This document shows, one piece after another, positions 1,033 through 63,423 of a DNA stretch of 64,000 nt. The stretch's first letter is position 1; every line of letters starts with the position of its first letter. The translations under genes were made by a program, and so were the position numbers. The notes under the pieces are model-generated. The model did not search any database, was not told where the DNA came from, and was given only the letters and a program-made list of their open reading frames with translations. Origin of the DNA: an uncultured Bacteroidales bacterium (GTDB taxonomy: Bacteria > Bacteroidota > Bacteroidia > Bacteroidales > FEN-979); the NCBI GenBank assembly GCA_903824935.1, contig CAIJYT010000078.1, positions 1-64,000 of the forward strand, in the 5' to 3' direction.

Positions 1033-1036
1033 TGAT

Positions 1037-25579: not shown

Positions 25580-25672
25580 TTCCGTTTATGACTTTCAATG
25601 TATTTATGATATAAGTAACCCAGTTTGCCGAAAATGGAAAACAGAGTAGGCATTTACTAAAATCTTAAAAAA

Positions 25673-30631: not shown

Positions 30632-33600
30632 ATGAAAAAAATTTTCAGCCTGGCTTTCCTGTTAAGCCTGGCCTTTACGGCCATTTCTCAAGTCAATCCT
30701 TTATGGATGAGATATACCTCCATTTCCCCCGACGGTCAGACCATCCTGTTCTGTTACAAGGGGGATATCTGGTCGGTGCCTTCAGGCGGCGGGACTGCGG
30801 TCCCCCTCACGCTCACCGATTCGTACGAATACTGCCCTGTATGGAGCCATGACGGGAAAACCATAGCCTTTGCATCAGACCGGACCGGCAATTTCGACGT
30901 TTTTGTCATGCCTGCCACCGGGGGTGAAGCACGGCGGCTCACGTTCAATTCAAACCGGGAACTTCCCTGCAGCTTTACAGCCAACGACAAGGATGTCATG
31001 TTCTCTGCTTACAGGCAGGATGTCTCAACCAATGCCCAGTTCCCCATTTCAATGATGAGTGAACTTTACACTGTGCCGGTGGCCGGGGGCAAGGTCTCGC
31101 TTTTGCTTCCCACGCCGGCGCTAAACGCCGCTCCCACATCCACAGGCGATAAAATACTATTTGAAGACATCAAGGGATACGAAAGCGAGTGGCGCAAGCA
31201 CCATACCTCAGCCGTCGCACGTGACATATGGGTTTACGACTTTAACGCAGCAAAATATACGAAACTGACAAGTTTCAGCGGCGAGGACCGCAACCCCGTT
31301 TTTGACGGCAATGATAAGGACTTCTACTACCTGAGCGAACAAAGCGGTTCTTTCAATGTCTATAAGTCTTCTCTTGATAATCCTTCAGTATCAACCGCCA
31401 TTACTCATTTTTCGAAAAATCCGTTGCGTTTCCTGAGCAGGTCAAAAAACAACACTCTTTGCTTTACATACGACGGGGAGATATATACTCTTACACCCGG
31501 GGGTGAGCCAAAAAAGGTGAATGTTAAGGTGAATGCCGATGGCCGCAGTCCGCAGGAACGGATAACTCCGGTGAATGAAGGCTTTACCGAGATGAGGCTT
31601 GCGCCCAACGGCAAGGAATTCGTATATGTTTTCAGGGGAGAAGTTTTTGTAAGCAGCGTGGACGGCGGAATCACGAAACGCATAACCAATACTCCATTCC
31701 AGGAGCGGAACGTGAGCTTTAGTCCCGACGGCCGTTCGCTGGTCTATGCTGCCGAAGTGAACAACAGCTGGAATGTTTATACCTGCTCCATCGTGCGAAA
31801 GGAAGAACCTTATTTCTATGCCTCAACGGTGTTAAAAACGGAACCTCTCGTTGCAACCTCAGCTGAAGAGTTCCAGCCGGAGTATTCGCCCGACGGGAAG
31901 GAAGTGGCCTACCTCGAAAACAGGGTTGTGCTTAAGGTGATTAACCTGGCCAGCAAAGATACCCGCACTATCATGCCCTCCACCGTCAACTATTCCTACG
32001 CCGACGGTGACCAGTATTACCAGTGGTCGCCCGACAGCAAATGGTTCCTTGTGCAGTTCGCTCATCCCGACAGGATATTCACACCTGAAGTTGGCCTTGT
32101 ATCGGCCGACGGCAAAGGCGAGATCCATAACCTCACCCTCAGCGGATATGACGATTTCGTCCCAAAATGGTCTGTCAGCGGCAAGATGTTCATCTGGGGC
32201 TGCGACCGTGACGGCACCCGCGACCAGGGAGGAAACCTCTCAAGCTCCGACGTTTGGGCTATGTTCATGACAAAGGCAGCCTTTGACAGGTTCAGGCTTT
32301 CAAAAGAAGAACTTGCCCTTGTGAAAGAGCAGGAGGAGAAGGCTGAAAAGGATAAAAAGAAAACCGAAGAAAAATCCAAAGCCGGGGCCGATAAGAAAGC
32401 CAAGGCCGACACTGCTTCAAAGGATACTTCAAAAGTCGAAGTGAAAATCGACTGGGAGAACCTGACGGAGCGTAAGGCAAAACTCACCATACATACATCC
32501 CCTGCCAGCGACTGGCTGCTTTCGAAGGATTGTGAAAAACTTTACTACATCACGAGCTTTGAAAAGGATAATGATCTGTGGATGACTGACCTGCGGACGA
32601 AGGAGACCAAGATGTTCGCAAAGATCGGCGCCAAGTCGGTCAACATGCAACTTTCGGGTGACGGGAAATTCCTGCTTTTGATGGCAGACGGCAAACCCAT
32701 GAAGGTGGATGCCGAAAGCGGCAAGGCCGAACCCCTTAAAGCATCGGGCGAAATGCTGCTAAAACCTGCAGATGAACGGAACTACATCTTCGACCATGCC
32801 TGGCGTCAGTTTAAAGAGAAATTCTATGTGGTGGACATGCAGGGCGTTGACTGGGACTATTATTATTCTGTTTATAAGAAATTCCTTCCATTTATAAACA
32901 ACAATTATGACTTCGCCGAGATGCTCAGCGAAATGCTGGGAGAAATGAACGCATCCCATACCGGCTGCGGCTACCGCGCAGGAAAGCCCAATACGGACCA
33001 AACGGCCGATCTCGGGCTTTTCTTCGATTATTCATATAAAGGCCAGGGGCTGAAGATTTCGGAAGTGGTTGAAGACGGTCCGCTTGATAAAGCAGTATCA
33101 AAGGTTAAGGCAGGCAACATCATCGAGAAGGTTGACGGACTCATTCTAAACGACACCATGGATTTTTACAGTATCCTGAACCGTAAGACCGGTAAGCTCA
33201 CCCTGCTTTCGGTGTATGATCCGGCTTCAGGCAGCCGCTGGGAGGAAAGCGTGAAACCTATTAACGGCGGTGAGGCTAATGAGCTCCTTTACAGACGCTG
33301 GGTGAAGAACCGCCGTGCCGAAGTTGAACAGCTGTCGGGCGGAAAAATAGGGTATGTGCATGTGCGCTCCATGGACGATGCCAGCATGAGGATCGTCTTC
33401 GAGGAAGCCCTCGGGCGTAATTTTGAGAAAAAAGCACTTATCGTGGATACCCGATTCAATGGTGGAGGCAATATCCATGAGCAGCTGAGTGATTTCCTGA
33501 GCGGGAAAAAATATATAGATATTATCCCTCATGGGCAGTATATTGGTTCAGAGCCTTACGACAAATGGGTGAAGCCATCCATTGTACTCATAGGAGAAAG

Positions 33601-33886
33601 CAATTATTCAGATGCACATCTCTTCCCGGTTGCATACAAGCTAAAGAATATAGGAAAAACCCTGGGCATGCCTGTCCCGGGTACAGGGACTTTTGTATGG
33701 TGGGAATCCCAGATCGATCCCACCCTTGTCTTTGGAATTCCTATGGGCGGATGGCGTATGCCTGATGGACGCTTTTGTGAAAACAACCAGTTGGAACCCG
33801 ATATCAGGGTAGCAAATGACCCGGGTATGCTTTCATCAGGCCATGATCAGCAGATCGAAGCTGCAGTGAAGGAGCTTATGAAGTAG
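30632..33886 (+). CDS. Tricorn-protease-like S41 peptidase (TolB-like beta-propellers + PDZ-like domain + S41 catalytic domain).
   Basis: 1084 aa with a signal peptide. Repeated WD40/TolB-like blades (SPDG..I.F...GDIW; SHDGKTIAFASDRTGNFDVFVM). C-terminus has DTRFNGGGNIHEQL (S41 DxRxNxGG motif). Confidence 0.8.
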   Translation: MKKIFSLAFLLSLAFTAISQVNPLWMRYTSISPDGQTILFCYKGDIWSVPSGGGTAVPLTLTDSYEYCPVWSHDGKTIAFASDRTGNFDVFVMPATGGEARRLTFNSNRELPCSFTANDKDVMFSAYRQDVSTNAQFPISMMSELYTVPVAGGKVSLLLPTPALNAAPTSTGDKILFEDIKGYESEWRKHHTSAVARDIWVYDFNAAKYTKLTSFSGEDRNPVFDGNDKDFYYLSEQSGSFNVYKSSLDNPSVSTAITHFSKNPLRFLSRSKNNTLCFTYDGEIYTLTPGGEPKKVNVKVNADGRSPQERITPVNEGFTEMRLAPNGKEFVYVFRGEVFVSSVDGGITKRITNTPFQERNVSFSPDGRSLVYAAEVNNSWNVYTCSIVRKEEPYFYASTVLKTEPLVATSAEEFQPEYSPDGKEVAYLENRVVLKVINLASKDTRTIMPSTVNYSYADGDQYYQWSPDSKWFLVQFAHPDRIFTPEVGLVSADGKGEIHNLTLSGYDDFVPKWSVSGKMFIWGCDRDGTRDQGGNLSSSDVWAMFMTKAAFDRFRLSKEELALVKEQEEKAEKDKKKTEEKSKAGADKKAKADTASKDTSKVEVKIDWENLTERKAKLTIHTSPASDWLLSKDCEKLYYITSFEKDNDLWMTDLRTKETKMFAKIGAKSVNMQLSGDGKFLLLMADGKPMKVDAESGKAEPLKASGEMLLKPADERNYIFDHAWRQFKEKFYVVDMQGVDWDYYYSVYKKFLPFINNNYDFAEMLSEMLGEMNASHTGCGYRAGKPNTDQTADLGLFFDYSYKGQGLKISEVVEDGPLDKAVSKVKAGNIIEKVDGLILNDTMDFYSILNRKTGKLTLLSVYDPASGSRWEESVKPINGGEANELLYRRWVKNRRAEVEQLSGGKIGYVHVRSMDDASMRIVFEEALGRNFEKKALIVDTRFNGGGNIHEQLSDFLSGKKYIDIIPHGQYIGSEPYDKWVKPSIVLIGESNYSDAHLFPVAYKLKNIGKTLGMPVPGTGTFVWWESQIDPTLVFGIPMGGWRMPDGRFCENNQLEPDIRVANDPGMLSSGHDQQIEAAVKELMK

Positions 33887-33971
33887 GCTTTAATCCGGCC
33901 AAGCGGATCTGACTCCTGGTTGCAGAGTTCTTTTTGATTGTGGGTTCCTTTAATTGAATAAATAAAATATG

Positions 33972-35045
33972 TTATGACCTGAGGTGGTTCTTTAATAAGA
34001 AATACTGACCTTTCTTAAAAATCGGAGTAAATGATTTTCCAACCTGGCTCTCTAAAAATTCATTCATCGCCAGATAAGCACCATATAACTGAGGTGTCGA
34101 AGTCGGATCTTCTGCAATAATAATTCCGCCATCAGCTAACCTTTCAGCGCATTTATATAAAGCAGAAAGAGTGGGTTCATACATATCAACATCAATGTTT
34201 GCAAGCGAAATTTTATCTATTGCCTCCGGTAATTCATCTGAGCAGATATTCCCTTCAATAAGTTCAAAAGGTGCTCCGGCATCTGCCAGGGTATCACTGA
34301 TATATTTCATTGTCTCCTGCACGCCTAATAATTTATGAGTGCCTTGCCATACAACGTCGAGACTGTTTTTAGCTTCTGCATAATTAAATCCATCAAACGT
34401 ATCAATCAGCCATGCTTTGCGTGATGCAACCTGGCTTACCCGCGATTGCTCATTTAAGAAGTTAAGCGTGGTCAAAGATGATCCTCCAAGAAAGACTCCG
34501 ATTTCAACAAAATCACCCTGAACATTTTTAGTCAGTTCAAGAGCTTCACACAAATTTTCATGAACAACCATTACCATGTGAGAAATGCGGTCAGATTTTT
34601 CCCATGTTTTTTTAATTGCATTGTAAGCTAATCGGTTTACAAACCGGTATTCGGTTTTTGTTGAATCCTGATGCGGCATGTATTTTCCTCCATGCTCTTT
34701 GATTTTTTTCAAAACAGGTAAAGCATCCGTATCACAGGTAAAGAAAATAAAAATAAGAGAATCGGGCATCTCTTCAACAGGGATTTCATCAAGTGAATAG
34801 ATGATTTTTCCTATATCCGATACATGATCGGGTAAACTGTGGCAATCGGTAAGAATATATTTCTTAAGACCAGGATATCTGATGTTTGCAATTTTTAAAT
34901 TGATTGGGCTTGAAAACAGTTTTTCCGGTGGAATTCTGACAAACGGATCTTCACCAGGGGCTATCTTTTCAGCCAGCTTTGACTTTTCTTTATTTAACAG
35001 ATCATCTCGTACCAATGACATTCTTTCATCAAATTGATTTTGCAT
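33972..35045 (-). CDS. TylF/MycF-like (macrocin O-methyltransferase family) SAM-dependent methyltransferase.
   Basis: 357 aa. The C-terminal half has GDFVEIGVFLGGSSL (class I MTase Gly-rich loop within the TylF-type fold) and DGGIIIAEDP. Confidence 0.55.
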   Translation of the reverse strand: MQNQFDERMSLVRDDLLNKEKSKLAEKIAPGEDPFVRIPPEKLFSSPINLKIANIRYPGLKKYILTDCHSLPDHVSDIGKIIYSLDEIPVEEMPDSLIFIFFTCDTDALPVLKKIKEHGGKYMPHQDSTKTEYRFVNRLAYNAIKKTWEKSDRISHMVMVVHENLCEALELTKNVQGDFVEIGVFLGGSSLTTLNFLNEQSRVSQVASRKAWLIDTFDGFNYAEAKNSLDVVWQGTHKLLGVQETMKYISDTLADAGAPFELIEGNICSDELPEAIDKISLANIDVDMYEPTLSALYKCAERLADGGIIIAEDPTSTPQLYGAYLAMNEFLESQVGKSFTPIFKKGQYFLLKNHLRS

Positions 35046-35367
35046 GGTTTTATTCTTTTATGATTTCAGGATTATTCAATAATTTGCGAACGTATTACGA
35101 ACAGCTAATTTAACAATTCTTTCGATCAATTCTTTGGACCGATGCGGTCGTACCGATGATAAAATAACCTGTATGCACTTAAGTTGATCCGGTGAAGATA
35201 TTGTTTAAAAAGGCTTATGATCGCAATGACAGGCATATGAAAAATAGTTGGTGGAAAAAGGTTGTTTATAGAAAAACAATATTATACCTTTATTGCATTA
35301 CAAACCGAACTGAAACCTATTGTTAGAGGTGCCAAAAGTAATATTGACCCAAAAGGGGAGGATTATC

Positions 35368-35397
35368 ATGGAACTGGTTATTTGCACAGGATATTAA
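35368..35397 (+). CDS. 9-codon upstream ORF (MELVICTGY) with a strong Shine-Dalgarno sequence, ending 1 nt before the rSAM start. A possible leader/uORF.
   Basis: aaaaggggaggattatcATGgaactggttatttgcacaggatatTAAcATG: GGAGG sits 6 nt upstream of the ATG. Such SD sequences are otherwise rare in this window. Confidence 0.25.
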   Translation: MELVICTGY

Positions 35398-35398
35398 C

Positions 35399-37027
35399 AT
35401 GACTGCGAAAAAACGGATTTTACTGATAATGCCTGAATGGAGGTTGACCACTTCGCGCTGGAGCCTGAATGACCACCCTTACATTAAAAAAAAAGCTTTT
35501 ATTCCTCCCATATCGTTGGCAATAATTGCCGCAATTACTCCTGATAACTTTGAAACTGATATTTGGGATGAAAGTGTCCACGGCTTTATTGGTGATGACA
35601 CCCGGTTCCCTGTGCCCTATGATATTGTTGGTATAGGAGGATATTTTACACATTTTTTTCGGGCTGTGGCCATTGCAAATTTCTTTAAAAAAAGTGGTGT
35701 GTTAGTCGTTGTTGGAGGAGCCGGAGTTACAGCTTCCCCAAATGAGTATCGCGATCATTTTGATGTTATGATATTGGGTGAGAGTGAAAATATCTGGCCT
35801 GGGTTTCTAAATGATTTTCTGGAGGGGAGTTATAAAAAAACATATAAAGACAAGAATCTGGTCGACATATCACTTTCCCCAAAACCTAAATGGGGAAACC
35901 TTAAGGCCTTGATGCTAAACAACTATGCAGTTGGCGCAATTCAAACTACAAGGGGATGTCCTTTCAGATGTGAATTTTGCAATGTGTGGAAGGTTTTCGG
36001 AAGAAAGATGCGTACCAAAACCAAACAACAGGTTATAGAAGAGATTGAAGAACTGAGTGATGCCGGGATGAAACATATTGCTTTATGTGAAGATAATTTT
36101 TTCGGAAATCCAAAATACACCAAAGACATCTTAAGGGGATTAATTGATTTGAACAAAACTCAGACAGATCCTTTATATTATTATACCGAGATCTCTATCA
36201 ATATTGCCTCCGATGACGAAGTCCTGAAAATGCTTGCCGATGCCGGGTTTGCCGGTCTTTTTATAGGCGTTGAATCACCCAGCAGAGAAAGCCTTAACGA
36301 GTCGAAGAAGGTACAAAACCTGAAAGGTGATCTGATTGAAAATTGTAAAAAAATACAATCGTACGGCTTGCCTGTTGAAGCCTCCATGATTGTTGGATTT
36401 GATCATGATGATGAAGGGATTTTTGACATGCAGTTTGAATTCTTACAGAAGGCATGCATTCCCTATCCGCGAATACGTATGCTACAGGCCAGACCAGGAA
36501 CTGAAACATTCAGGAAGTTGATGCTGCAAAACCGTGTACTTGACACATCGAAACTCCATTCACAAGGATCATATTTTGACATGTACCTGATACCCAATAT
36601 AATTCCTGCCAAGATGACGCGTATCACCTTATTCGGACAATATGTAAAATTGCTGGAGCGGCTTTATGACTGGGATAATTTCACAGAACGGATGACAGGC
36701 TTTATAGATTCAATTGAGTACATCCCGGAAAGGGATCGTAAACAGGAGGTCAGGGGTACTGACCTAACACTGCCGCAGGAGTTAACAAATTTTATTTCCT
36801 TACTGGGTGAAAAGGAGAGGCAATGTGTTGTGAGGATATTGAATCATACGGCTAAAAAAGCGCCTCATCAATTATATAATGTTGTTTCGATAATTGTAAG
36901 ACAGCAATTAGAGGCTCAAAATCTGGAGATTACACGGAAATCCCTTACGAATCAAATAGAATTCGAGCGAAATCTCGATCTTAGTAAATTTATTCTCAAG
37001 GATTCAACTGCCAATGGCACCGTTTAA
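35399..37027 (+). CDS. B12 (cobalamin)-binding radical SAM enzyme with a DUF4070-like C-terminal domain (HpnP/class-B rSAM architecture).
   Basis: 542 aa. N-terminal B12-binding Rossmann-like region (ILLIMPEW ... VVVGGAGVTASP ... DVMILGESE). Radical-SAM cluster motif TTRGCPFRCEFCNV (CxxxCxxC). Confidence 0.8.
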   Translation: MTAKKRILLIMPEWRLTTSRWSLNDHPYIKKKAFIPPISLAIIAAITPDNFETDIWDESVHGFIGDDTRFPVPYDIVGIGGYFTHFFRAVAIANFFKKSGVLVVVGGAGVTASPNEYRDHFDVMILGESENIWPGFLNDFLEGSYKKTYKDKNLVDISLSPKPKWGNLKALMLNNYAVGAIQTTRGCPFRCEFCNVWKVFGRKMRTKTKQQVIEEIEELSDAGMKHIALCEDNFFGNPKYTKDILRGLIDLNKTQTDPLYYYTEISINIASDDEVLKMLADAGFAGLFIGVESPSRESLNESKKVQNLKGDLIENCKKIQSYGLPVEASMIVGFDHDDEGIFDMQFEFLQKACIPYPRIRMLQARPGTETFRKLMLQNRVLDTSKLHSQGSYFDMYLIPNIIPAKMTRITLFGQYVKLLERLYDWDNFTERMTGFIDSIEYIPERDRKQEVRGTDLTLPQELTNFISLLGEKERQCVVRILNHTAKKAPHQLYNVVSIIVRQQLEAQNLEITRKSLTNQIEFERNLDLSKFILKDSTANGTV

Positions 37028-37037
37028 AACTGAATGT

Positions 37038-38678
37038 ATGGATGTAACCTCAGTTGGAAGAAAAAGAATTTTGCTTGTTATGCCAGACTGGAGGTCGGCT
37101 ACTTCTAAATGGACTCCAAACGATCATCCATACCTGAATAAAAAAGCTTTAATGCCCCCGTTGTCCTTAGCCACCATTGCTGCCCTGACCCCTGAGGATT
37201 TCGAAATTGATATCTGGGACGAAAGTGTTCATGGCTTTATAAATGATGACACCCGGTTTCCGGTATCCTATGATATTGTTGGCATTGGAGGATATTACTC
37301 GCACATCTTCCGCGTACTAACCCTTGCAGGAATCTTTAAACGCAGAGGTGATTTCCTGGTTGCAGGCGGAGCTGGTGTTACAGCGTCACCTAAAGAATAC
37401 CGTGAGTATTTTGATGTACTGATATTGGGAGAAAGTGAATATATCTGGCCTCAGTTTTTACATGATTTTCTTGATGGAAATTATAAAAAAACATATAAGG
37501 AGATCAATCCTGTAAATATGGCACATTCCCCCAAGCCCAAATGGGGAAATATTAAGGCTTTGATGGCAGGCAACTATACCGTTGGCGCGGTTCAAACTAC
37601 AAGGGGGTGCCCTTTCAGATGCGACTTTTGCAATGAATGGAGAATCTTTGGAAGAAAGGTGCGTACAAAAAGCACACAACAGGTTATTGAGGAAATTGAA
37701 GAGCTTAGTAATGCCGGGTTGAAACAAATCGTTTTTGGGGTTGATAATTTTTACGGGAATCACAAATATGCCAGAGAAATCCTGACTGCAATAATTGAAT
37801 TTAATAAAACGCAGTCAGAGCCTTTGCATTTCATTACTCAGATATCCGTTACCATCTCTTCCGACGATGAATTCCTGAAAATGATGGCCGATGCTGGATT
37901 TAACGGTCTGTTCATTGGCATTGAATCTCCCAAAGCAGCAAGCCTTATCGAGTCGAAAAAGTTACAAAACTTAAAAGGTGATCTGTTAGAAAATTGTAAA
38001 AAAATACTTTCTTATGGTTTGCCTGTTGAAGCCTCCATGATTGTGGGATTTGATGAGGATGATGAAAGTATTTTTGATGCGCAGTTTGATTTTATACAAA
38101 AATCATGCATTCCATACCCGCGCATCCGTTTGCTGCAGGCTAAACCTTGTACTGACCTTTTTGACAAGCTGATCCTTGAAAGGCGGGTACTCGACACATC
38201 GAAACTTCATTTGGCAGAAAACTATTTTGACACTTACCTGATTTCCAATATCATTCCGGCTTCGATGACCCGTATAAGCTTATTTGAAAATTATTTAAAA
38301 TTATTGGACCGGGTATTTGACATGGATAATTTCACGGAACGGATGATGGGCTTTATAGACCTTATCAACTACTGTCCGGAACGAGAAAAAAAAGAAGATG
38401 TCCGGATAATAGGTGGAAAATTACCTGCAGAGTTAAATAATTTCATCCGTAAAATTGATCCGAAAGAGCAAGATTGTGTTGAAAAGATATTGAATCATGC
38501 TGCAAGCAAGGTCCCACACCAGTTGAATAATATCGTTGGCTTAATTGTAAGGCAGCAATTTGAAGCTCAGCAGGTGGAAGAAACAAAAAAGACTATTTTA
38601 TCTCAAATTGAATTTGAGCGAAATCTTGATTTGAGTCAATGCATTCTTGAAGTTTCTGAGGGAATTGACGATTTATGA
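37038..38678 (+). CDS. Second B12-binding radical SAM enzyme, a tandem paralog of the previous gene (~60% aa identity; an alternative ATG is at 37014).
   Basis: TTRGCPFRCDFCNEW. Motifs are shared in the same order with the upstream gene (ASMIVGFD.DDE, CIPYPRIR.LQA.P.T, ERNLDLS), and the DNA is also clearly similar. Confidence 0.8.
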   Translation: MDVTSVGRKRILLVMPDWRSATSKWTPNDHPYLNKKALMPPLSLATIAALTPEDFEIDIWDESVHGFINDDTRFPVSYDIVGIGGYYSHIFRVLTLAGIFKRRGDFLVAGGAGVTASPKEYREYFDVLILGESEYIWPQFLHDFLDGNYKKTYKEINPVNMAHSPKPKWGNIKALMAGNYTVGAVQTTRGCPFRCDFCNEWRIFGRKVRTKSTQQVIEEIEELSNAGLKQIVFGVDNFYGNHKYAREILTAIIEFNKTQSEPLHFITQISVTISSDDEFLKMMADAGFNGLFIGIESPKAASLIESKKLQNLKGDLLENCKKILSYGLPVEASMIVGFDEDDESIFDAQFDFIQKSCIPYPRIRLLQAKPCTDLFDKLILERRVLDTSKLHLAENYFDTYLISNIIPASMTRISLFENYLKLLDRVFDMDNFTERMMGFIDLINYCPEREKKEDVRIIGGKLPAELNNFIRKIDPKEQDCVEKILNHAASKVPHQLNNIVGLIVRQQFEAQQVEETKKTILSQIEFERNLDLSQCILEVSEGIDDL

Positions 38679-38733
38679 TAATGTTTGAATGAGTTTGCAA
38701 AATTTATTTACACCCTCAAACTAATCTTGTCTT

Positions 38734-39441
38734 TTAAGTCAAACAGCTCATTGGTGCGATGAGCAACCGGCTCATCAATTCATCAAGATCTTTTTCTGAC
38801 GGGAAGGCTACAGACAATACCCCGCCCGGGATAGCAACAGAAAGAGCCGTGAACATCCTTAGGTGTTTAAACCGGCACCGGCGGATCAGGCGAGGCTCTT
38901 CAGAAACAGTCTCTATATGATCTGTTTCATACCATTCATGCGGAACCCTGAATCCCAGCCTTATTGCCTTTCCCGCGGCTTCTTTCGCAGTCCAGAGGAC
39001 GTGAAACAACTCAAGCTCATCCTTTTCTTTTCTGCACATCTCCTTCTCCCAATCGCTGAGTACTATGGGTATGATTGTGCGGTTTTTCTCCGTGATGCTT
39101 TCCACATCAACTCCCATCATGAAGGTCAAAGGAAAACACAATCCGGCATTCAGAAAATTACCATGAGCTATTGAGACTCCATACGGCTGCTGAAGGTTGC
39201 TGATATGGGGTTCGCCCAGGCTGCCAGTTGTGATGTGTATTTCAGCAGAAGGAATATCAGGGAATACTTTTTCAATGGCCATTTTTCCTGCTATCCTTCC
39301 GTGAAAGAATGATCTTCTGCGGATATCCGATCCAAAAGCACCCGCGGTTTTTATCTCTTCAGGGTGTAGCATCTGACGAACTTTTTCCCTGAGTTCTTCG
39401 TCGTTGAATGTTGGAAACATTACGAGGCCGGCTGATATCAT
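38734..39441 (-). CDS. Sfp-type 4'-phosphopantetheinyl transferase.
   Basis: Carries GVDVESI and WTAKEAAGKAIRLG (W/FxxKEAxxK). Its ATG at 39441 overlaps the NRPS TGA stop by 4 nt (ATGA). Confidence 0.75.
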   Translation of the reverse strand: MISAGLVMFPTFNDEELREKVRQMLHPEEIKTAGAFGSDIRRRSFFHGRIAGKMAIEKVFPDIPSAEIHITTGSLGEPHISNLQQPYGVSIAHGNFLNAGLCFPLTFMMGVDVESITEKNRTIIPIVLSDWEKEMCRKEKDELELFHVLWTAKEAAGKAIRLGFRVPHEWYETDHIETVSEEPRLIRRCRFKHLRMFTALSVAIPGGVLSVAFPSEKDLDELMSRLLIAPMSCLT

Positions 39442-42400
39442 AATCCCGTATCCCCCCATTTCATCAATGCACGCACCAGTTCCTTCACAAAGGGGCGGGC
39501 AATGACCGAAACATGATTCCCGGGAATATTAACAACCGACAGATCATGCTGGATCCATAGCCCCCAATCCAGATCTGAAGACCTTTCCGGAACCATGGCC
39601 TGCCCGTCAAACGGAGGCAATGCATCCTGGGCCCTGATCAGCAGGGTTTTCCCTTCAAAAGAGCCCGGCCGGCAGGCCGCCGTGATCTCATTATGATAGA
39701 TCATCAGATCGAGATATCCGTGAAAATCGCTGATCTTCATGTCGGGCGGTACAAGGTTGGCCCATATAAACGCTTTAAGAAATACCTCTGACTGGGCTAC
39801 CGGTTCTTTCCCTCTCAGATCTGCGGCGCTTATCCCAAGCGGGCGGCCCACCAGATAGGCTACCTTGCCTGCAAAAGCAAGCATCCGGTCAATAGGATCG
39901 ATGGTAATGGCTGTATATTCAGGTTCCGCTTTAACCGGTGCCATCTGATCAATGATCATCAGCCGGGGGTTTACTCCCGAGGATTCCCCGACCTGTCTTG
40001 CCATCTCAAATGCAATGAGCGCTCCCATAGACCATCCTGCAAATACTACATCATCGATGCAGGTTGGCAGATTGATCTCTTCAAGATAAAAACGGGCCAT
40101 ATCGCTTACGCTGTCAACTTTTTTACCCGACAGTCCCGACGCCTGCAATCCGTAAATCGAATAATCCATTCCCAGCTCCCGGGCCAGCTCATAGTAACAG
40201 AGCACATTGCCGCCGGCCGGATGAACCAGGTACAACTGCTTTTTCCCGTTACCCGGCCTGATCGGGACCAGGGAGGAGGGCTTCTGCTTTAAGCCTGATT
40301 CCCTGAGAAGCTCAGCCAAAGCCATCACGCTCCCCCTTTCGAACAAGGTAGCCAGTGGAAGATGAACATGAAACTCCTTCTCGATTGAAGCAAAAAGCTG
40401 TATTGCAAGAAGGGAATGACCGCCCAGATCGAAAAACCCATCGCCTATACCCAACTCCTGAAGCTTCAGTACTTCTCTGAAAATATTGACCAGCCTGAGC
40501 TCGGTAAGATCACGGGGCGGTGCCAATGAACGGGAAGTTTCATCCCGGGTCCCGGTCATCCGCCTTAATTCCTTAAAATCGGTTTTTCCGTTGGATGTGA
40601 GTGGAAAAAGCTCAATCACATAAAAAACCGAGGGGATCATATATGATGGTAAACGATGTGAAAGCCATTGCCTGAGTTCGTTCTCATCATAAACAAAGCC
40701 CTGTTTCAGACTGATGGCCGCCTGCACTGAACTCACCGAAGAAACGTGTTCAGGAACGAGTACCACAGCCTGTTCAACCGCTATAAATTCATTCAGTACA
40801 TTCTCAATCTCACGGGTTTCTACCCGGTAGCCCCTGATCTTGATCTGATGATCGCTGCGGCCAAGGAAGACAACTGATCCGTCATCCTGCATCCTTCCCA
40901 GATCACCCGTACGGTAAATACGCTCCCCTTTCAGGAAAGGATCGTCAGCAAACTTTTCACTGCTTAGCTGAGGCTGGTTCAGATATCCACGGGAAATATT
41001 ATGTCCACTCAATATGATTTCTCCGGGAATACCTTTCGGGAGGAGCTGAAGATCTTCGCCGGTGATATAAACTGCCGTATTATCGAGCGGAAACCCGATT
41101 GGAAAAATGAGCTGTTCCGGAGCAGGATTAACAGGGATCTCCCAGGTAAGCGAGCCGATAGTGGCTTCAGTGGGACCATAATGGTTAAGGATTCTGAGCA
41201 AAGGAGCGAGGTTTCTGAGCTGTTTGACAATTTCCGCACTGCATTTTTCACCCCCGAGCATCAGCAGTTTATGCGGTAAAAGACTGGCAGCCCGTGATGA
41301 ATGGAGCAGACTCATCATGTGAGAAGGCACGATCTTAAGGCAATCAACCGGCTGGCGATGGAACCAATCGGCCAACAGAGATGCATCGGTCGAATGATCT
41401 TCAGGAATTATCACGACCTCGCCGCCATGGATCAGGGGAGGGAATATCATTGTGTTGCCGAGGTCGGCGGCAATGGATGAAATAGTGGCAAAGGAATCAC
41501 CGGCTTCCATCTTCATCCTCTCCCACACTGCTTTTGAGTAATTAAGCAGCTGGCCGGATCCGATACAAACTCCCTTGGGATTTCCCGTTGTTCCCGAGGT
41601 ATAGATCACATACGACAGTTGATCGCCACCAGGAAGGTCAGGTAAAGTAAGAGTCTCAGAAACCTCATCTCCGGCGATCAGCTTACTGTAAAGAAGGACA
41701 GGAATGCCTGTCCCGGCAAGCCTTTTAGACAACTCCTCTGTGCTGATGGTCCGCTTCAGTGAAGCATCTTGTGCAATAAACTTAAGCCTTTCTTCAGGAA
41801 TACCGCTATCCAGGGGAACATAAGCTCCGCCTGCTTTTAAGATTCCCAGGATAGAAATAATGAGGGATGCCTCGCGGGGAAGAAGTATACCAACCAGATC
41901 TCCCTTTCTTATCCCCTCTTTGGCGAGAGTATTTGCAAGCTGACCGGAAACCATGTCAAGCTCCCGGTAAGTGATCTGCTGGTGGATATCGCGTATGGCT
42001 TTTAAATCGGGTGTTGCCCTGGCCTGTGCCCTGAATTCATCAAGCCAGGAAGCAGGCGAATTCACTCCTGGTTCAGTGTAAACTGAAGGCTTTCCTCTGC
42101 AGAGCGATCGCTGGTCAGCCGGGAACCAGGCCAGCCTGCCGCATGATTCATCGGGATGGCTTATGATGGAGGTCATCAGAATCTTGTAGTTGATCAGCAT
42201 CTTCTGAATCGTCTGACGAAGGAATATCTCGCGTGGATAAGTCACCGAGAGGATCAGCCCCTGGTTCGCCTCCTCAACCCAGAAATTCAGGTCAAACTTG
42301 GAATAGGAATAATCAATGCTCTCGGGTTTCACTACAAGGCCTTTGACGCTGTATAGAGAAGGGATGTTCTGATGTACAAAGTGAACCTGGAAAACAGGGT

Positions 42401-43577
42401 TGGTACTCAGGTTACGGTCGGGTTTTACCTCCTCGATGAGCTTTTCAAAAGGAAGTTCCTGCCTCATAAAAGCCTGCTGGGAATAGGTTTTTATATGATT
42501 CAGAAAGTTTATTGCCGTAAGGTTTTCATCAGTTTTCACCCGCATCGGAAGAGTATTGATAAAAAGCCCCATGGTATTCTGGAACGAAAGCTGATTTCTT
42601 CTTGCAACCGGAACGCCAATCATGATATCCTTTTGACCGCTGTACTTTGACATTAGCAAACCGAAAACTCCGAAAAGCAGATGAAACAGGGTAATATTTT
42701 CGCGCTGGCAGAATTGCCGGAGTTTTTCGGTTTCCGCAGCGTCTATGGCATTAACTTCTTTGCTCCCGTGGTGCGACATTACAGCAGGCCTTTGAAAGTC
42801 TAGCGGCAGGCGCAGGGGTTCAGGCAGTCCGGCTAACTGGGTTTTCCAGAAATCAAGCTGTTCTTTGTAAACGGGAGTGAGCATCCAGTCCTTTTCCCAT
42901 TTCACAAAATCAATATACTGGTATTCCGGGCCGGCGAATGGCATAGGTTCTTTGCTTTCAAGAGCCGCGTAGGTCATCGAAAGTTCTTTTGCAAACAGCG
43001 CATTCGACCATCCATCTGAGATGATATGATGGGGATTGATCAGAAGAATGTATTCCAGATCGTCCAGGTGAAGCACATCGAAACGAAGTAACGGAAGCTG
43101 GCCGAGGGGGATTACGGTTTTCCCGTGTTCGAGAGCCAGGGTCATGGCCTTAGTTTCTTTTTCGTTCAATGGCAGAGTACGGAGATCCCGGTAAATTATC
43201 TCAGGTTTACCGCATGCATGAACATGTTGCACCGGATTTCCGTTCATCACATCGAAGGTAGTTCGAAGGATCTCATGCCGTTCGGTGAGGAGTCCGAGGC
43301 TCTGAGCAAGGATATCGATATTCAGGGGAAACACTGCCGACATCCTGAGGGCGACCGGATTGTTATATATGGCTTCTCCCTCGGTGAGGTTATGAAGGAA
43401 CCACATCCTTTCCTGCGCTTTTGACAAAGGATAGATTCCCCCGGGGTTCCGTTCCATTTTAGGAGGTCTCCCAATCCTCGGGGCTGAATCATCCCTTCCC
43501 TTTCGGAGCAGTGCTTTCAGCTGATCGGGACTTAATCCCGACAGGCGTTCATTCAGTGATTTTTCCTGCTTCGCCAT
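39438..43577 (-). CDS. NRPS termination module: C-A-T-TE (the track ORF extends to 43682; ATG 43577 is the likely start).
   Basis: C domain has LSKAQERMWFL and HHIISDGWS (HHxxxDG). A domain has YTSGTTGNPKG and NYGPTE. T domain has FFDLGGHSLLAIQL. TE domain has GWSMGALIAFEMA (GxSxG). Confidence 0.9.
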   Translation of the reverse strand: MAKQEKSLNERLSGLSPDQLKALLRKGRDDSAPRIGRPPKMERNPGGIYPLSKAQERMWFLHNLTEGEAIYNNPVALRMSAVFPLNIDILAQSLGLLTERHEILRTTFDVMNGNPVQHVHACGKPEIIYRDLRTLPLNEKETKAMTLALEHGKTVIPLGQLPLLRFDVLHLDDLEYILLINPHHIISDGWSNALFAKELSMTYAALESKEPMPFAGPEYQYIDFVKWEKDWMLTPVYKEQLDFWKTQLAGLPEPLRLPLDFQRPAVMSHHGSKEVNAIDAAETEKLRQFCQRENITLFHLLFGVFGLLMSKYSGQKDIMIGVPVARRNQLSFQNTMGLFINTLPMRVKTDENLTAINFLNHIKTYSQQAFMRQELPFEKLIEEVKPDRNLSTNPVFQVHFVHQNIPSLYSVKGLVVKPESIDYSYSKFDLNFWVEEANQGLILSVTYPREIFLRQTIQKMLINYKILMTSIISHPDESCGRLAWFPADQRSLCRGKPSVYTEPGVNSPASWLDEFRAQARATPDLKAIRDIHQQITYRELDMVSGQLANTLAKEGIRKGDLVGILLPREASLIISILGILKAGGAYVPLDSGIPEERLKFIAQDASLKRTISTEELSKRLAGTGIPVLLYSKLIAGDEVSETLTLPDLPGGDQLSYVIYTSGTTGNPKGVCIGSGQLLNYSKAVWERMKMEAGDSFATISSIAADLGNTMIFPPLIHGGEVVIIPEDHSTDASLLADWFHRQPVDCLKIVPSHMMSLLHSSRAASLLPHKLLMLGGEKCSAEIVKQLRNLAPLLRILNHYGPTEATIGSLTWEIPVNPAPEQLIFPIGFPLDNTAVYITGEDLQLLPKGIPGEIILSGHNISRGYLNQPQLSSEKFADDPFLKGERIYRTGDLGRMQDDGSVVFLGRSDHQIKIRGYRVETREIENVLNEFIAVEQAVVLVPEHVSSVSSVQAAISLKQGFVYDENELRQWLSHRLPSYMIPSVFYVIELFPLTSNGKTDFKELRRMTGTRDETSRSLAPPRDLTELRLVNIFREVLKLQELGIGDGFFDLGGHSLLAIQLFASIEKEFHVHLPLATLFERGSVMALAELLRESGLKQKPSSLVPIRPGNGKKQLYLVHPAGGNVLCYYELARELGMDYSIYGLQASGLSGKKVDSVSDMARFYLEEINLPTCIDDVVFAGWSMGALIAFEMARQVGESSGVNPRLMIIDQMAPVKAEPEYTAITIDPIDRMLAFAGKVAYLVGRPLGISAADLRGKEPVAQSEVFLKAFIWANLVPPDMKISDFHGYLDLMIYHNEITAACRPGSFEGKTLLIRAQDALPPFDGQAMVPERSSDLDWGLWIQHDLSVVNIPGNHVSVIARPFVKELVRALMKWGDTGL

Positions 43578-43588
43578 GGCCTGTTGGA

Positions 43589-44734
43589 TCAGGGGTAAGT
43601 AAGGACCAGCTTCCCAATATGTTTTGAGCGCGACATGGCAGTGAGAGCTTCTTTTAGCTGTCGGACAGGGTAGGTCACGCAAGGAATCGGTTTAAAAAGC
43701 CCGGAATTGAAAAGCCCGGCGATTTCCGTGAGCTGTTCTTTCAGCCTGCGCGGCTGTACCAGGTACAACGAAATATCGAGTACCGAAAAAGTGATCCCTT
43801 TGCTGAATATGCCCATCGGCAGAAGGGTGTTCTTCGCGATATCCTTTTTATCGATCTGAATAAACCGGCCAAAGGGTGCAAGTATCTCCAATCCTTTCAT
43901 CATGCCATCTCCCGAAAGAGTATTCAAAACGACATCGACTCCCCTGCCCCTGGTCAGTTTCATGATTTCTTCGCCAAATAAAACGGACCTTGAATCCATC
44001 GGATGAACGATTCCTCTTTTTATAAGGAATTCCCTCTTCTCTGGTGATCCTGCCGTTGCATATATCCCTGCCTTCCTCCATTCTGCAATTTCCAGAGCGG
44101 CAAGGCCCACTCCGCCGGTAGCTGTATGGATCAGTACCGATTCGCCTTCAGCAATATTTGCCAGACGTATCAGGCCTGAGAATGCCGTGAGGAAAACCGT
44201 GGGGACCGCGGCTGCTTCTTCAAAGCTCAGTCCATGAGGTTTTGGTACAACCTGCAGTTGTGAAAGGTTGAAAACATTGATGAAATGGCTCCCAGGCTGC
44301 ACTTTCCCGTCGATGAAAGTGCCCGCCGACAAGGCAATTACCTCATCTCCTTCTTTGATCCCACTCACTCCGGGGCCCACACGGGTAACTACCCCGGCAT
44401 AATCGGAACCCATATTGGAAGGGACCCCGGGAGCCTCTGGGTATTGTCCCATGGCAATCATCAGGTCGCGGTAGTTCAGGCTTGCTGCAAGGGCTTTCAC
44501 CTGTACATAGCCTTCGGGAGGATCAGCGGCCTTTGCTTCCCTGAAGCTGATATTCAATGAACCGGGATTACCGGGATCGCAGGAAAAACAATCCGGCAGT
44601 TGTAACTCTTCCTTTTCCGGTTTATTCTGATTCCCGGCGCCCTTCGCAGAAGCATAGCCAAGACGTTTCAACAGCATCTCCTTCTGCTCAGGCGACAAAC
44701 CTGCAATTTTTTTCAGAAGTTCATCATTGTTCAT
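43589..44734 (-). CDS. Discrete (trans-acting) PKS-type enoyl reductase, MDR superfamily.
   Basis: Motifs VKALAASLNYRDLMIAMGQYP (PKS-ER LNFRD-type) and HTATGGVGLAALEIA (NADPH-binding), plus an N-terminal ~60-aa extension. Confidence 0.75.
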   Translation of the reverse strand: MNNDELLKKIAGLSPEQKEMLLKRLGYASAKGAGNQNKPEKEELQLPDCFSCDPGNPGSLNISFREAKAADPPEGYVQVKALAASLNYRDLMIAMGQYPEAPGVPSNMGSDYAGVVTRVGPGVSGIKEGDEVIALSAGTFIDGKVQPGSHFINVFNLSQLQVVPKPHGLSFEEAAAVPTVFLTAFSGLIRLANIAEGESVLIHTATGGVGLAALEIAEWRKAGIYATAGSPEKREFLIKRGIVHPMDSRSVLFGEEIMKLTRGRGVDVVLNTLSGDGMMKGLEILAPFGRFIQIDKKDIAKNTLLPMGIFSKGITFSVLDISLYLVQPRRLKEQLTEIAGLFNSGLFKPIPCVTYPVRQLKEALTAMSRSKHIGKLVLTYP

Positions 44735-50306: not shown

Positions 50307-50319
50307 AAGTTGTAGTTTT

Positions 50320-56978: not shown

Positions 56979-57000
56979 TTATTAATCCTGTTAAACGATT

Positions 57001-59925: not shown

Positions 59926-59926
59926 A

Positions 59927-62098: not shown

Positions 62099-62127
62099 AA
62101 CTAGGCTCGATTGATTGGTATGGAGTA

Positions 62128-63378: not shown

Positions 63379-63423
63379 AATAAAATATATTGCTGGTAAC
63401 AAAAAACCTGCAAAGGCGGGTTG

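What the first reader, a model, noticed from the sequence alone, without database searches (positions are those of the whole stretch)
33972..38678. AT-richer tailoring island beside the assembly line: tandemly duplicated B12-radical-SAM enzymes (HpnP-like) plus a TylF-like O-methyltransferase
Two adjacent paralogs (542 and ~546 aa) share B12-binding domain, CxxxCxxC and a DUF4070-like C-terminus. They are clearly similar even at the DNA level, consistent with a recent tandem duplication. The same architecture is used by cobalamin-dependent C-methyltransferases such as hopanoid HpnP. They lie convergent with the PPTase at the end of the NRPS-PKS operon. Together with the TylF-like methyltransferase they form a block that is visibly more AT-rich than the NRPS/PKS genes, suggesting a separately acquired tailoring cassette. 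A plausible role is successive C-methylations of the hybrid product, but a RiPP-modifying role cannot be excluded.
Basis: partly seen in the sequence, partly recalled or inferred. Interest (0 to 1): 0.6.

Follow-up and report, generated by a model that had tools for sequence, protein, structure and literature searches.

The report
Radical SAM pair beside NRPS-PKS cluster
Two old, still-functional copies of a vitamin-B12-type radical SAM enzyme sit beside an uncharacterised peptide-polyketide gene cluster in an uncultured freshwater Bacteroidales bacterium. This enzyme accompanies the same cluster in several phyla, so it is a real but fairly ordinary tailoring module, most likely adding methyl groups.

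Summary
ORFs 35399..37027 and 37014/37038..38678 encode paralogous radical SAM proteins (67% aa, 73% nt identity). Both have CxxxCxxC, a B12-binding-like N-domain and a DUF4070 tail. ORF 33972..35045 (-) is a TylF-family methyltransferase. The block is the lowest-GC 4.7 kb in the window (0.388 vs 0.479, z = -4.4).

- The duplication is old: dS 1.23, dN/dS 0.17, with orthologous a/b pairs in three lineages.
- The rSAM is not an add-on. One or two copies accompany the same PKS-ER-NRPS(C-A-T-TE) line in Bacteroidales, Actinomycetes, Desulfocapsaceae and further unclassified metagenome contigs.
- The two-gene cassette (about 35375..38733) does move as a unit. In a sister MAG it sits at the other end of the cluster, and its dS to the window is 0.4 against 1.5-2.1 for neighbouring genes.
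- TylF is outside that cassette and co-diverges with the assembly line.
- "HpnP-like" holds only for domain architecture.

Most likely function: C-methylation of unactivated carbons on the assembly-line product (inferred). Cobalamin binding and methyl transfer are unproven. A RiPP-like rival exists: a conserved small protein plus an NHLP-type exporter. This is a new member of a known kind.

The parts
33972..35045 (-). TylF/MycF/NovP-family methyltransferase, 357 aa. The methyltransferase domain covers residues ~171-320 and the first ~170 aa are unassigned. It lies at the edge of the cluster, outside the mobile rSAM cassette.
   Evidence: Pfam TylF scores 58.6 bits against a cut-off of 23. A 72% homologue sits two genes beyond the PPTase in another cluster variant, L093. 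Its divergence there (72% aa, dS 1.5) matches that of ER (73%) and NRPS (67%). GC is 0.377 and GC3 0.316.
35046..35398 (.). 353-bp divergent intergenic region between the methyltransferase and rSAM1.
   Evidence: Sequence read. It holds no conserved small ORF and no Rfam match such as a cobalamin riboswitch. Similarity to L013 starts only ~25 nt upstream of the rSAM1 ATG.
35399..37027 (+). rSAM1 (the 'a' paralog), 542 aa. It has a Rossmann/B12-binding-like N-domain, a radical SAM barrel with C187-x3-C191-x2-C194, and a helical DUF4070 C-domain.
   Evidence: The AF2 model has pLDDT 89.2. The best fold matches are AprD4, MgmA, OxsB, TsrM, CysS and TokK.
37014..38678 (+). rSAM2 (the 'b' paralog), 554 aa from the ATG that overlaps the rSAM1 stop by 14 nt, or 546 aa from the ATG at 37038.
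   Evidence: Gene callers in public assemblies use the 554-aa form. All family-invariant residues are retained.
35375..38733 (+). The two-gene rSAM cassette that behaves as one exchangeable unit. Boundaries are approximate.
   Evidence: Megablast matches L013 9975-13315 to window 35372-38713 at 89.1%. The boundary alignments are. dS is 0.37/0.43 for the cassette against 1.5-2.1 for the neighbouring transporter genes.
38734..39459 (-). Sfp-type 4'-phosphopantetheinyl transferase, the last gene of the minus-strand cluster and convergent with rSAM2.
   Evidence: Pfam ACPS scores 43.9 bits.
39438..43682 (-). NRPS termination module C-A-T-TE. Its A-domain code is about DLTKMGHIGK, which is Asp-like.
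   Evidence: Pfam. The specificity code is; its first three positions were read by eye and the reference codes are from memory.
43589..44734 (-). Stand-alone enoyl reductase of the MDR family.
   Evidence: Pfam ADH_N/ADH_zinc_N. NCBIfam matches the ER region of a PKS. It is conserved next to the PKS in all cluster variants.
44724..50486 (-). Type I PKS module with KS-AT-KR-DH-like-ACP domains.
   Evidence: Pfam.
50320..55410 (-). NRPS A-T-C-A-T. The first A domain lacks Asp235 (code AATTYSLANK). The second has code DILQIGLVYK, which is Gly-like.
   Evidence: Pfam and specificity codes.
55449..63402 (-). Export block: outer-membrane factor (55449..56978), NHLP-type ABC2 (57001..59925), NHLP-type ABC1 with a C39-like domain (59927..62098) and a HlyD-type adaptor (62128..63402).
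   Evidence: Pfam. TIGR03797 scores 774.6 bits against a cut-off of 709.4. TIGR03796 scores 812.8 bits against a cut-off of 853.3.
63534..63737 (-). Conserved 67-aa Lys/His-rich small protein directly upstream of HlyD. It is a possible peptide substrate or accessory protein.
   Evidence: Homologues occur in L004, L013, L017 and L096-L099. It matches no Pfam or NCBIfam family.

Best explanation
The two genes encode long-separated paralogs, both under purifying selection, from one small clade of class-B-type (cobalamin-domain) radical SAM enzymes. That clade is a signature accessory of an orphan NRPS-PKS-NRPS assembly line. The predicted skeleton is a non-amino-acid starter, then Gly, then one fully reduced C2 unit, then Asp.

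The most likely chemistry is as follows. Each enzyme cleaves SAM at its [4Fe-4S] cluster, abstracts a hydrogen from an unactivated sp3 carbon, and transfers a methyl group from methylcobalamin. The substrate would be the aliphatic part of the carrier-tethered or released product. The a and b copies would serve two different positions or two successive methylations.

In this Bacteroidales group the pair travels as a 3.36-kb two-gene cassette. It has been exchanged between lineages and inserted at different ends of the cluster, which explains its distinct low-GC composition. The TylF-like methyltransferase is a separate, vertically co-inherited edge gene of the cluster.

Shown: paralogy, age of the duplication, purifying selection, fold class, linkage to the cluster, and cassette mobility. 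Inferred: cobalamin use, methyl transfer, the substrate, and the division of labour between the copies.
For: Linkage to the cluster:
- One or two copies lie beside the same PKS-ER-NRPS(C-A-T-TE) genes in L004-L006, L007/L008, L009/L010 and L011/L012/L014, or, in L017, beside the transporter genes and the A-T-C-A-T NRPS of the same cluster type.
- In several loci the start codon overlaps the NRPS-TE stop codon.
- rSAM identity to the L004 copies (70/67%) matches that of PKS, ER and NRPS (69/72/67%).

Old duplication with both copies functional:
- The NJ tree gives orthologous a and b clades.
- dS is 1.23 and dN/dS is 0.17.
- All invariant residues are kept in both copies.
- An independent, younger duplication (90% identity) occurred in L007.

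Fold and family:
- The AF2 model has pLDDT 89.
- The best matches are AprD4 (a cobalamin-independent exception) and then the cobalamin rSAMs MgmA, OxsB, TsrM, CysS and TokK. CysS and TokK were crystallised with pantetheinylated substrates (sequence matches).
- Relatives pass the Pfam B12-binding cut-off: 35.5 and 41.8 bits in L020 and 48.1 bits in P0256.
- C-methyltransferases are by far the most represented function in this superfamily (PMC12931638).

Acyl-chain substrates in the wider family:
- Fusions occur with a fatty-acid desaturase, with an acyl-AMP ligase plus sulfotransferase, and with alpha/beta-hydrolases.
- Some relatives are embedded among PKS genes, in L024, L025 and L042.

Cassette mobility.
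Against: - Nothing here demonstrates methyl transfer or cobalamin binding.
- The window proteins score below the Pfam B12-binding cut-off.
- The top structural match is AprD4, a cobalamin-independent dehydratase with the same domain layout.
- No curated NCBIfam family comes near its cut-off.
- The substrate prediction rests on specificity codes derived with a GrsA fragment and reference codes recalled from memory.
- In three of the four loci that carry the small conserved protein, it lies just downstream of the rSAM genes. The exporter is of a RiPP type.
- Only 10 of the 80 loci returned by the GTDB scan for the wider family have PKS or NRPS genes within 10 kb.
Confidence: 0.55

Rival explanations
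1. The enzymes serve the same cluster but perform different chemistry. They would be radical SAM enzymes that do not methylate. Examples are a cobalamin-independent dehydratase of the AprD4 type, or a cyclisation, ring-contraction or C-S bond-forming enzyme like BchE, OxsB, HpnJ or ThnL. They would act on the NRPS-PKS intermediate.
For: The best fold match is AprD4 (E 6e-19, TM 0.72 on target length). The Pfam B12-binding score of the window proteins is below the cut-off. NCBIfam matches include BchE, HpnJ and AprD4 at scores similar to the methylases. The review PMC12931638 lists non-methylating members of the superfamily.
Against: Methyltransferases dominate the characterised members. The N-domain is among the most conserved parts of the family, with motifs such as GGAGVT and ILGExE..WP. 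It passes the B12-binding cut-off in relatives. All fold matches have only 13-17% identity, so their ranking is not diagnostic.
Confidence: 0.2
2. This is a RiPP-like sub-pathway. The rSAM pair would modify the conserved 67-aa Lys/His-rich protein (63534..63737, -). That protein would then be exported by the NHLP-type ABC/HlyD/OMF system, and the NRPS-PKS would be a neighbour or a partner.
For: The small protein lies immediately downstream of the rSAM gene(s) in L004 and L017, and one gene further on in L013. The two ABC proteins match NHLP bacteriocin exporter equivalogs: TIGR03797 above its cut-off and TIGR03796 just below. The window and L017 peptides contain GG followed by IP.
Against: Clusters in L007, L009 and L011/L014 keep the rSAM, in L009-L012 with its start codon at or overlapping the NRPS-TE stop. 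They have no small protein and no NHLP exporter within 10 kb. In the window and in L096-L099 the small protein sits with the transporter genes; the rSAMs are 25 kb away in the window and not within 10 kb in L096-L099. No RRE, PqqD or SPASM domain is present. The C39 domain has Ser in place of the catalytic Cys. The peptide matches no NHLP or Nif11 leader model.
Confidence: 0.12
3. The three genes (methyltransferase plus two rSAMs) would form one foreign island, added to the cluster recently and duplicated recently.
For: All three genes share low GC and GC3, and the island has sharp edges. The rSAM pair does show a discordant, younger history than its neighbours.
Against: The duplication is old. 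The segment shared with L013 stops ~25 nt upstream of rSAM1 and excludes TylF. L013 has no TylF gene next to the pair. TylF co-diverges with ER and NRPS between the window and L093. The rSAM is universal in the cluster family.
Confidence: 0.08
4. The enzymes are housekeeping lipid methylases of the HpnP/HpnR type, unrelated to the cluster.
For: The three-domain architecture is the same as in HpnP (PMC10697835). A mevalonate-pathway operon lies at 31..6369.
Against: No squalene-hopene cyclase was found among the window proteins scanned against Pfam. HpnR and HpnJ models score 47-60 bits against cut-offs of 578-650. Synteny with the NRPS-PKS is strict across phyla. The mevalonate genes are 28 kb away and have normal GC.
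Confidence: 0.03

Closest known systems
CysS (cystobactamid) and TokK/ThnK (carbapenems): cobalamin-dependent radical SAM methylases acting on pantetheine- or carrier-tethered intermediates of NRPS-type pathways
   Same: They share the three-domain fold: a Rossmann cobalamin domain, a rSAM barrel and a helical C-domain. They are encoded in secondary-metabolite clusters. An O-methyltransferase accompanies the rSAM in sister clusters L009 and L011, as in the cystobactamid pathway (from my own knowledge). They perform iterative or multiple methylations, which could explain two copies.
   Different: Structural alignments show only 13-16% identity. Sequence matches are weak: CysS 25.7 bits and TokK 48.8 bits with the family profile. 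The window proteins are ~100 aa shorter. Here there are two dedicated paralogs instead of one iterative enzyme. The substrate is unknown.
MgmA/QCMT (PDB 9ccb), the methyl-coenzyme M reductase glutamine C-methyltransferase
   Same: It is the best sequence match among solved structures, at 60.7 bits for the single sequence and 68.4 bits for the profile over the rSAM core. It is a B12-dependent methylase of an sp3 carbon (PMC11796369; PMC12931638).
   Different: The match covers only the rSAM core (residues ~180-372). TIGR04014 scores 71 bits against a cut-off of 360. MgmA is archaeal and modifies a protein, and it has no DUF4070 tail of this kind.
HpnP (hopanoid C-2 methylase) and the uncharacterised 'HpnP-like' clades
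   Same: They share the domain architecture B12-binding + radical SAM + DUF4070 (PMC10697835). The wider family shows fusions pointing to lipid or acyl substrates.
   Different: The context holds no hopanoid genes. No HpnP-specific match was obtained. A phylogeny against authentic HpnP could not be run because no HpnP sequence was available in the tools.
AprD4 (PDB 6fd2), a radical SAM 1,2-diol dehydratase
   Same: It is the top fold match, with the same domain order.
   Different: AprD4 does not use cobalamin and works on an aminoglycoside (from my own knowledge; the PDB title names its substrate, paromamine). Identity is 17%. The NCBIfam AprD4 model scores 30.6 bits against a cut-off of 500.
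TylF/MycF/NovP sugar O-methyltransferases (for the 33972..35045 gene)
   Same: The Pfam TylF domain scores above its cut-off. The motifs VEIGVFLGG, DTFDGF and IDVDMYEPT resemble the SAM-binding and metal-binding motifs of the family. This was read by eye and the comparison is from memory.
   Different: The protein has an extra ~170-aa N-terminal region. No glycosyltransferase or sugar-pathway gene was seen in the cluster. No NCBIfam family matches. Homologues at 57% identity lie in polysaccharide loci.

Membership tests
Radical SAM superfamily | CxxxCxxC motif binding the [4Fe-4S] cluster within a Radical_SAM (PF04055) core | tested here: met
   PF04055 scores 71.8 and 68.9 bits against a cut-off of 29.5. 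C187/C191/C194 are invariant in 27 sequences, including both copies.
Class B (cobalamin-dependent) radical SAM enzymes | N-terminal Rossmann-type cobalamin-binding domain preceding the rSAM barrel | tested here: inconclusive
   PF02310 aligns over nearly its full length but scores 25.5 and 20.2 bits, below the cut-off of 32.1. Relatives at 41% identity pass, at 35.5 and 41.8 bits, as does P0256 at 48.1 bits. The AF2 fold matches MgmA, OxsB, TsrM, CysS and TokK, but also the cobalamin-free AprD4.
Class B (cobalamin-dependent) radical SAM enzymes | Actual binding of cobalamin, and SAM used both as radical source and methyl donor (5'-dA plus SAH formed) | not testable with these tools
   This needs purified, reconstituted protein. 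No cobalamin riboswitch is present in the window, which argues neither way.
HpnP (hopanoid C-2 methylase) | Architecture B12-binding + radical SAM + DUF4070 | tested here: met
   DUF4070 scores 25.4 bits (passes) for rSAM1 and 21.2 bits (just below 22) for rSAM2. The architecture definition comes from PMC10697835.
HpnP (hopanoid C-2 methylase) | Placement inside the monophyletic HpnP clade | not tested
   No authentic HpnP sequence could be obtained. The matches listed for either protein (all 24 for rSAM2, the best 25 of 27 for rSAM1) include no HpnP model. HpnR scores 60.5 and 46.7 bits against a cut-off of 650.
HpnP (hopanoid C-2 methylase) | Occurrence in a hopanoid producer (squalene-hopene cyclase present) | tested here: not met
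   No cyclase was found among the window proteins scanned against Pfam. The rest of the genome was not available, so this test covers the window only.
RiPP-modifying B12-rSAM methylases (PoyB/C type, TIGR03975) | Match to the family model, with an adjacent NHLP/Nif11-type precursor | tested here: not met
   TIGR03975 scores 27.5 and 22.7 bits against a cut-off of 281.85. The small protein matches no NHLP or other model. Only the exporter is NHLP-type.
TylF/MycF/NovP O-methyltransferases | PF05711 domain above its gathering score | tested here: met
   58.6 bits against a cut-off of 23, with residues 171-320 aligned to model positions 87-235 of 264.
TylF/MycF/NovP O-methyltransferases | A deoxysugar hydroxyl as substrate (glycosylated product, glycosyltransferase in the cluster) | tested here: not met
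   No glycosyltransferase or sugar-biosynthesis gene lies between 38.7 and 64 kb, or next to the gene.

The most novel reading that the evidence does not exclude
The rSAM pair, the conserved 67-aa Lys/His-rich protein and the NHLP-type exporter would form a peptide-based sub-pathway that cooperates with the NRPS-PKS. The small protein might be a radical-SAM-modified scaffold or carrier, or a co-exported partner. That would make this a true ribosomal/non-ribosomal hybrid system conserved from Bacteroidota to Desulfobacterota.
Probability: 0.1. Interest if true: 0.75.

Novelty: new member of a known kind. Interest (0 to 1): 0.38.

Why it matters
Cobalamin-type radical SAM enzymes are the main known enzymes that alkylate unactivated carbons, and few have a known substrate. 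This clade is small, sharply defined and always tied to one compact orphan assembly line. The clade and its cluster are found in uncultured freshwater Bacteroidales, Actinomycetes and Desulfocapsaceae, and on further unclassified metagenome contigs. It therefore offers a tractable route to a new substrate-enzyme pair and to the product of an unstudied cluster family.

The two old paralogs, together with sister clusters that carry only one copy, form a natural experiment on how many modifications each enzyme performs. The dS discordance is a clean example of a tailoring cassette being swapped within a conserved cluster. None of this overturns current understanding.

Tried and rejected
- Sigma-70 promoter and terminator scans of 33.8-39.6 kb gave counts near the shuffled expectation. 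They are not informative, and Bacteroidota promoters differ from this consensus anyway.
- Rfam found no cobalamin riboswitch. The only match in the window is a DUF805b RNA at 25618..25652.
- There are no tRNA genes in the window, and none of the window ORFs scanned against Pfam is a transposase or integrase. No terminal repeat is evident in the alignments of the cassette boundaries.
- Small ORFs inside the island and in the 353-bp spacer showed nothing conserved.
- I looked for gene-conversion tracts between the two copies. The higher a-b identity in the window and L013 (67%) than in L004 (52%) is spread evenly along the protein, so no tract could be called.
- Literature searches for DUF4070, for cobalamin rSAM with NRPS/PKS, and for Bacteroidetes NRPS-PKS with rSAM found no description of this cluster family.
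- A direct phylogeny against HpnP, Fom3 and GenK was not possible, because their full sequences could not be imported.
- An MbtH-like identity for the small protein was rejected (no Pfam match).


Full report
**What is there**

- A 357-aa protein is encoded on the minus strand at 33972..35045.
- After a 353-bp divergent spacer come two plus-strand ORFs: 35399..37027 (542 aa) and 37014..38678 (554 aa).
- The second ORF is 546 aa if it starts at the ATG at 37038. The longer form overlaps the first gene's stop by 14 nt, and public gene calls use it.
- rSAM2 ends 55 nt from the stop of a minus-strand PPTase at 38734..39459.

Pfam assigns Radical_SAM strongly to both large proteins (71.8 and 68.9 bits). 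B12-binding aligns over almost the whole model but falls below the gathering score (25.5 and 20.2 bits against 32.1). DUF4070 scores 25.4 and 21.2 bits around its cut-off of 22. The 357-aa protein matches TylF at 58.6 bits.

The two rSAM proteins are 67% identical without gaps, and the DNA is 73% identical over 1590 nt.

The block has the lowest GC of any 4.7-kb stretch in the window: 0.388 against a mean of 0.479, sd 0.021 and minimum 0.428 elsewhere (z = -4.4). The edges are sharp, near 33.9 and 38.75 kb. GC3 is 0.32-0.39 against 0.48-0.58 in the flanking genes.

An independent JGI assembly reproduces window 32860..48678 at 99.994% identity, so the arrangement is not an assembly artefact.

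**Surroundings**

The minus strand from 63.7 to 38.7 kb carries one cluster. In order, it encodes:
- a 67-aa small protein;
- a HlyD-type adaptor;
- two ABC proteins that match the NHLP bacteriocin-export equivalogs (TIGR03796 at 812.8 bits against a cut-off of 853.3; TIGR03797 at 774.6 bits against 709.4);
- an outer-membrane factor;
- an NRPS with A-T-C-A-T domains;
- a PKS with KS-AT-KR-DH-like-ACP domains;
- a stand-alone enoyl reductase;
- an NRPS with C-A-T-TE domains;
- the PPTase.

To the left of the island lies a tricorn-type protease.

I extracted A-domain specificity codes using a GrsA fragment recalled from memory. The fragment reproduces the published code DAWTIAAICK. The results are:
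- AATTYSLANK for the loading domain, which lacks Asp235 and so probably does not load an alpha-amino acid;
- DILQIGLVYK for the second domain, which is Gly-like;
- about DLTKMGHIGK for the terminal domain, which is Asp-like and conserved in four sister clusters.

The predicted skeleton is therefore starter acid, Gly, one fully reduced C2 unit, then Asp. This prediction has low confidence.

The nearest genome is an uncultured Bacteroidales MAG (L013, 90% identity).

**The rSAM belongs to the cluster family**

Homologues at 57-70% identity always lie beside the same assembly line.
- L004-L006: PKS-ER-rSAMa-rSAMb-small protein-NRPS(C-A-T-TE).
- L007/L008: PKS-ER-NRPS-rSAM-rSAM.
- L009/L010 and L011/L012/L014 (L014 is an Actinomycetes MAG): PKS-ER-NRPS-rSAM followed by a Methyltransf_2 O-methyltransferase. 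The rSAM start sits at or overlaps the NRPS-TE stop.
- L017 (a 43% relative in Desulfocapsaceae): HlyD-rSAM-small ORF-ABC-ABC-OMF-NRPS.

rSAM identity to the L004 copies (70/67%) tracks that of PKS, ER and NRPS (69/72/67%).

The wider family is large: 2,733 representatives (50%-identity clusters) at E <= 1e-30. It is diverse in context, and only 10 of the 80 loci returned by the GTDB scan have PKS or NRPS genes within 10 kb. The cluster-linked clade, by contrast, collapses to one or two representatives at 50% identity. The refutation criterion of 'unrelated housekeeping enzymes' is therefore not met.

**The duplication is old**

In a neighbour-joining tree the a copies of the window, L013 and L004 group together, and so do the b copies. 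Between the two window copies dS is 1.23, dN/dS is 0.17, and third-position identity is 54%. Both copies keep every family-invariant residue.

An independent and truly recent duplication (90% identity) occurred in the L007 lineage. Two- and three-copy arrays are common in the wider family, in L018-L020, L026, L027 and L029. Duplication therefore recurs and is retained, which suggests a division of labour between copies. 'Recent tandem duplication' is rejected for this locus.

**The pair is nevertheless a mobile cassette**

In L013 the pair lies at the other end of the cluster. There it sits between housekeeping genes (YceG, Nnr, ParE-like) and the membrane protein, small protein and HlyD block. 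No TylF gene is beside it.

Megablast aligns only window 35372..38713 to L013 at 89%, whereas the transporter block aligns at 76%. The boundary alignments show that similarity starts about 25 nt before the rSAM1 ATG and ends about 55 nt after the rSAM2 stop.

Between the window and L013, dS is 0.37 and 0.43 for the rSAMs. It is 1.89, 1.48 and 2.10 for HlyD and the two ABC genes. The rSAM values equal the divergence between the window and a close sister strain, L097 (0.34-0.40). The cassette has therefore been exchanged between lineages much more recently than its neighbours diverged.

The cassette keeps a GC of about 0.40 in both genomes, while housekeeping genes are at 0.48-0.52. In L004, L007, L009 and L011 the GC3 of the rSAM genes equals that of their neighbours. 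The dip is therefore specific to this lineage and is not a property of the protein family.

**TylF is a separate matter**

TylF lies outside the exchanged segment. Its 72% homologue in L093 sits two genes beyond the PPTase of another cluster variant: PKS-ER-NRPS-PPTase-Methyltransf_2 OMT-decarboxylase-TylF. Its divergence there (72% aa, dS 1.5) matches that of ER (73%) and NRPS (67%). It is probably a vertically co-inherited edge gene of the cluster.

Homologues at 57% identity lie in polysaccharide loci, and the cluster contains no glycosyltransferase. Its substrate is therefore open.

**What the enzymes do**

No curated NCBIfam model comes near its cut-off. The best are generic B12-rSAM families, at 60-72 bits against cut-offs of 251-750.

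The best solved relative by sequence is MgmA (9ccb), the MCR glutamine C-methylase. A confident AF2 model (pLDDT 89.2, pTM 0.89) matches AprD4, MgmA, OxsB, TsrM, CysS and TokK at 13-17% identity. CysS and TokK were crystallised with pantetheinylated substrates, a precedent for action on carrier-tethered intermediates. AprD4 has the same layout but, to my knowledge, does not use cobalamin. Cobalamin use therefore cannot be taken for granted.

Several points favour a real cofactor domain.
- The N-domain is strongly conserved.
- Relatives pass the Pfam cut-off.
- The review PMC12931638 states that C-methyltransferases are by far the most represented function in the superfamily.

Fusions in the wider family point to aliphatic chains as substrates. 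The partners are a fatty-acid desaturase, an acyl-AMP ligase plus sulfotransferase, alpha/beta-hydrolases and a class I methyltransferase.

I therefore favour methylation of unactivated carbons on the acyl or gamma-amino-acid part of the product, with the a and b copies serving two sites or two steps (confidence 0.55). Non-methylating chemistry on the same product is the main rival (0.2).

**The RiPP rival**

A conserved 67-71-aa Lys/His-rich protein is encoded in several variants of the cluster. Its motif is KMPD..KWNHH.KNH.DENGNWKPK.
- In L004 and L017 it lies just downstream of the rSAMs.
- In L013 it lies one gene further on.
- In the window (63534..63737) and in L096-L099 it lies directly upstream of HlyD.

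Together with the NHLP-type exporter, this makes a RiPP-like reading possible.

Against it:
- L007, L009 and L011 retain the rSAM without this protein or exporter.
- The rSAMs have no RRE or SPASM domain.
- The C39 domain has Ser in place of the catalytic Cys.
- The peptide matches no leader family.

I put this rival at about 0.12.

**Comparison and verdict**

The system works like known cobalamin-rSAM tailoring enzymes of NRPS and PKS pathways (CysS, TokK/ThnK), but it belongs to none of the curated families. The HpnP comparison holds for architecture only. Clade membership could not be tested, and there is no hopanoid context in the window.

This is a new member of a known kind: an uncharacterised, cluster-specific clade of class-B-type rSAMs in an orphan cluster family. 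The cassette-exchange history adds a second point of interest. Interest is moderate.

Noticed in passing
window 63534..63989 (-); L013 13464..14402; L097 9321..10204: A conserved 67-71-aa Lys/His-rich protein lies directly upstream of HlyD and is preceded by a VC0807-family membrane protein. In the window the membrane protein's stop codon is lost, so the two ORFs are fused in frame. In the 89%-identical sister strain L097 they are separate genes in different frames. The small-protein family is tiny, with 11 clusters in 5.8 billion proteins.
   Followed up: partly
window 59927..62098 (-), N-terminal ~140 aa: The C39 peptidase domain of the NHLP-type ABC exporter reads QIGENESGAIAL, with Ser where the catalytic Cys is expected. 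The comparison with the canonical motif is from memory. The whole protein scores just below the TIGR03796 cut-off (812.8 against 853.3 bits).
   Followed up: partly
window 55449..63402 (-): A RiPP-type (NHLP bacteriocin) export cassette with an outer-membrane factor is physically coupled to an NRPS-PKS. The same coupling recurs in L013, L017 and L096-L099.
   Followed up: partly
window 50320..55410 (-), first A domain: The loading A domain lacks the Asp235 that binds the alpha-amino group (code AATTYSLANK; AASCFSLACK in L017). The starter is therefore probably not an alpha-amino acid, and its identity is unknown.
   Followed up: partly
window 44724..50486 (-): The PKS has an unusual domain order by Pfam coordinates. 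KR (1216-1411) precedes the PS-DH match (1605-1726). A PF21394 match lies at 997-1165, and the enoyl reductase is a separate protein.
   Followed up: no
L007 8225..11743: An independent, much younger tandem duplication of the same rSAM (90% identity) occurs in a high-GC cluster variant. The wider family also has 2-3-copy arrays (L018-L020, L026, L027, L029).
   Followed up: partly
proteins P0256, P0260, P0313, P0323, P0395 (wider family): These are natural fusions of this rSAM family with alpha/beta-hydrolases, a fatty-acid desaturase, an acyl-AMP ligase plus sulfotransferase, and a class I methyltransferase. They hint at acyl-chain substrates.
   Followed up: partly
window 25618..25652 (+): A DUF805b cis-regulatory RNA (Rfam RF02914) scores 35.9 bits against a gathering score of 35.6. 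It lies just upstream of the SPFH/Band-7 gene at 25673..27946.
   Followed up: no
window 31..6369 (-): This looks like a mevalonate-pathway operon: a UbiA prenyltransferase, a fused diphosphomevalonate-decarboxylase-like protein, HMG-CoA reductase and two unassigned ORFs. It has normal GC and lies 28 kb from the island.
   Followed up: no
window 55449..56978 and 7957..8757: Two other single genes also have low GC: the outer-membrane factor at 0.395 and an ion-channel protein at 0.398. Composition in this region is therefore mosaic beyond the island.
   Followed up: no
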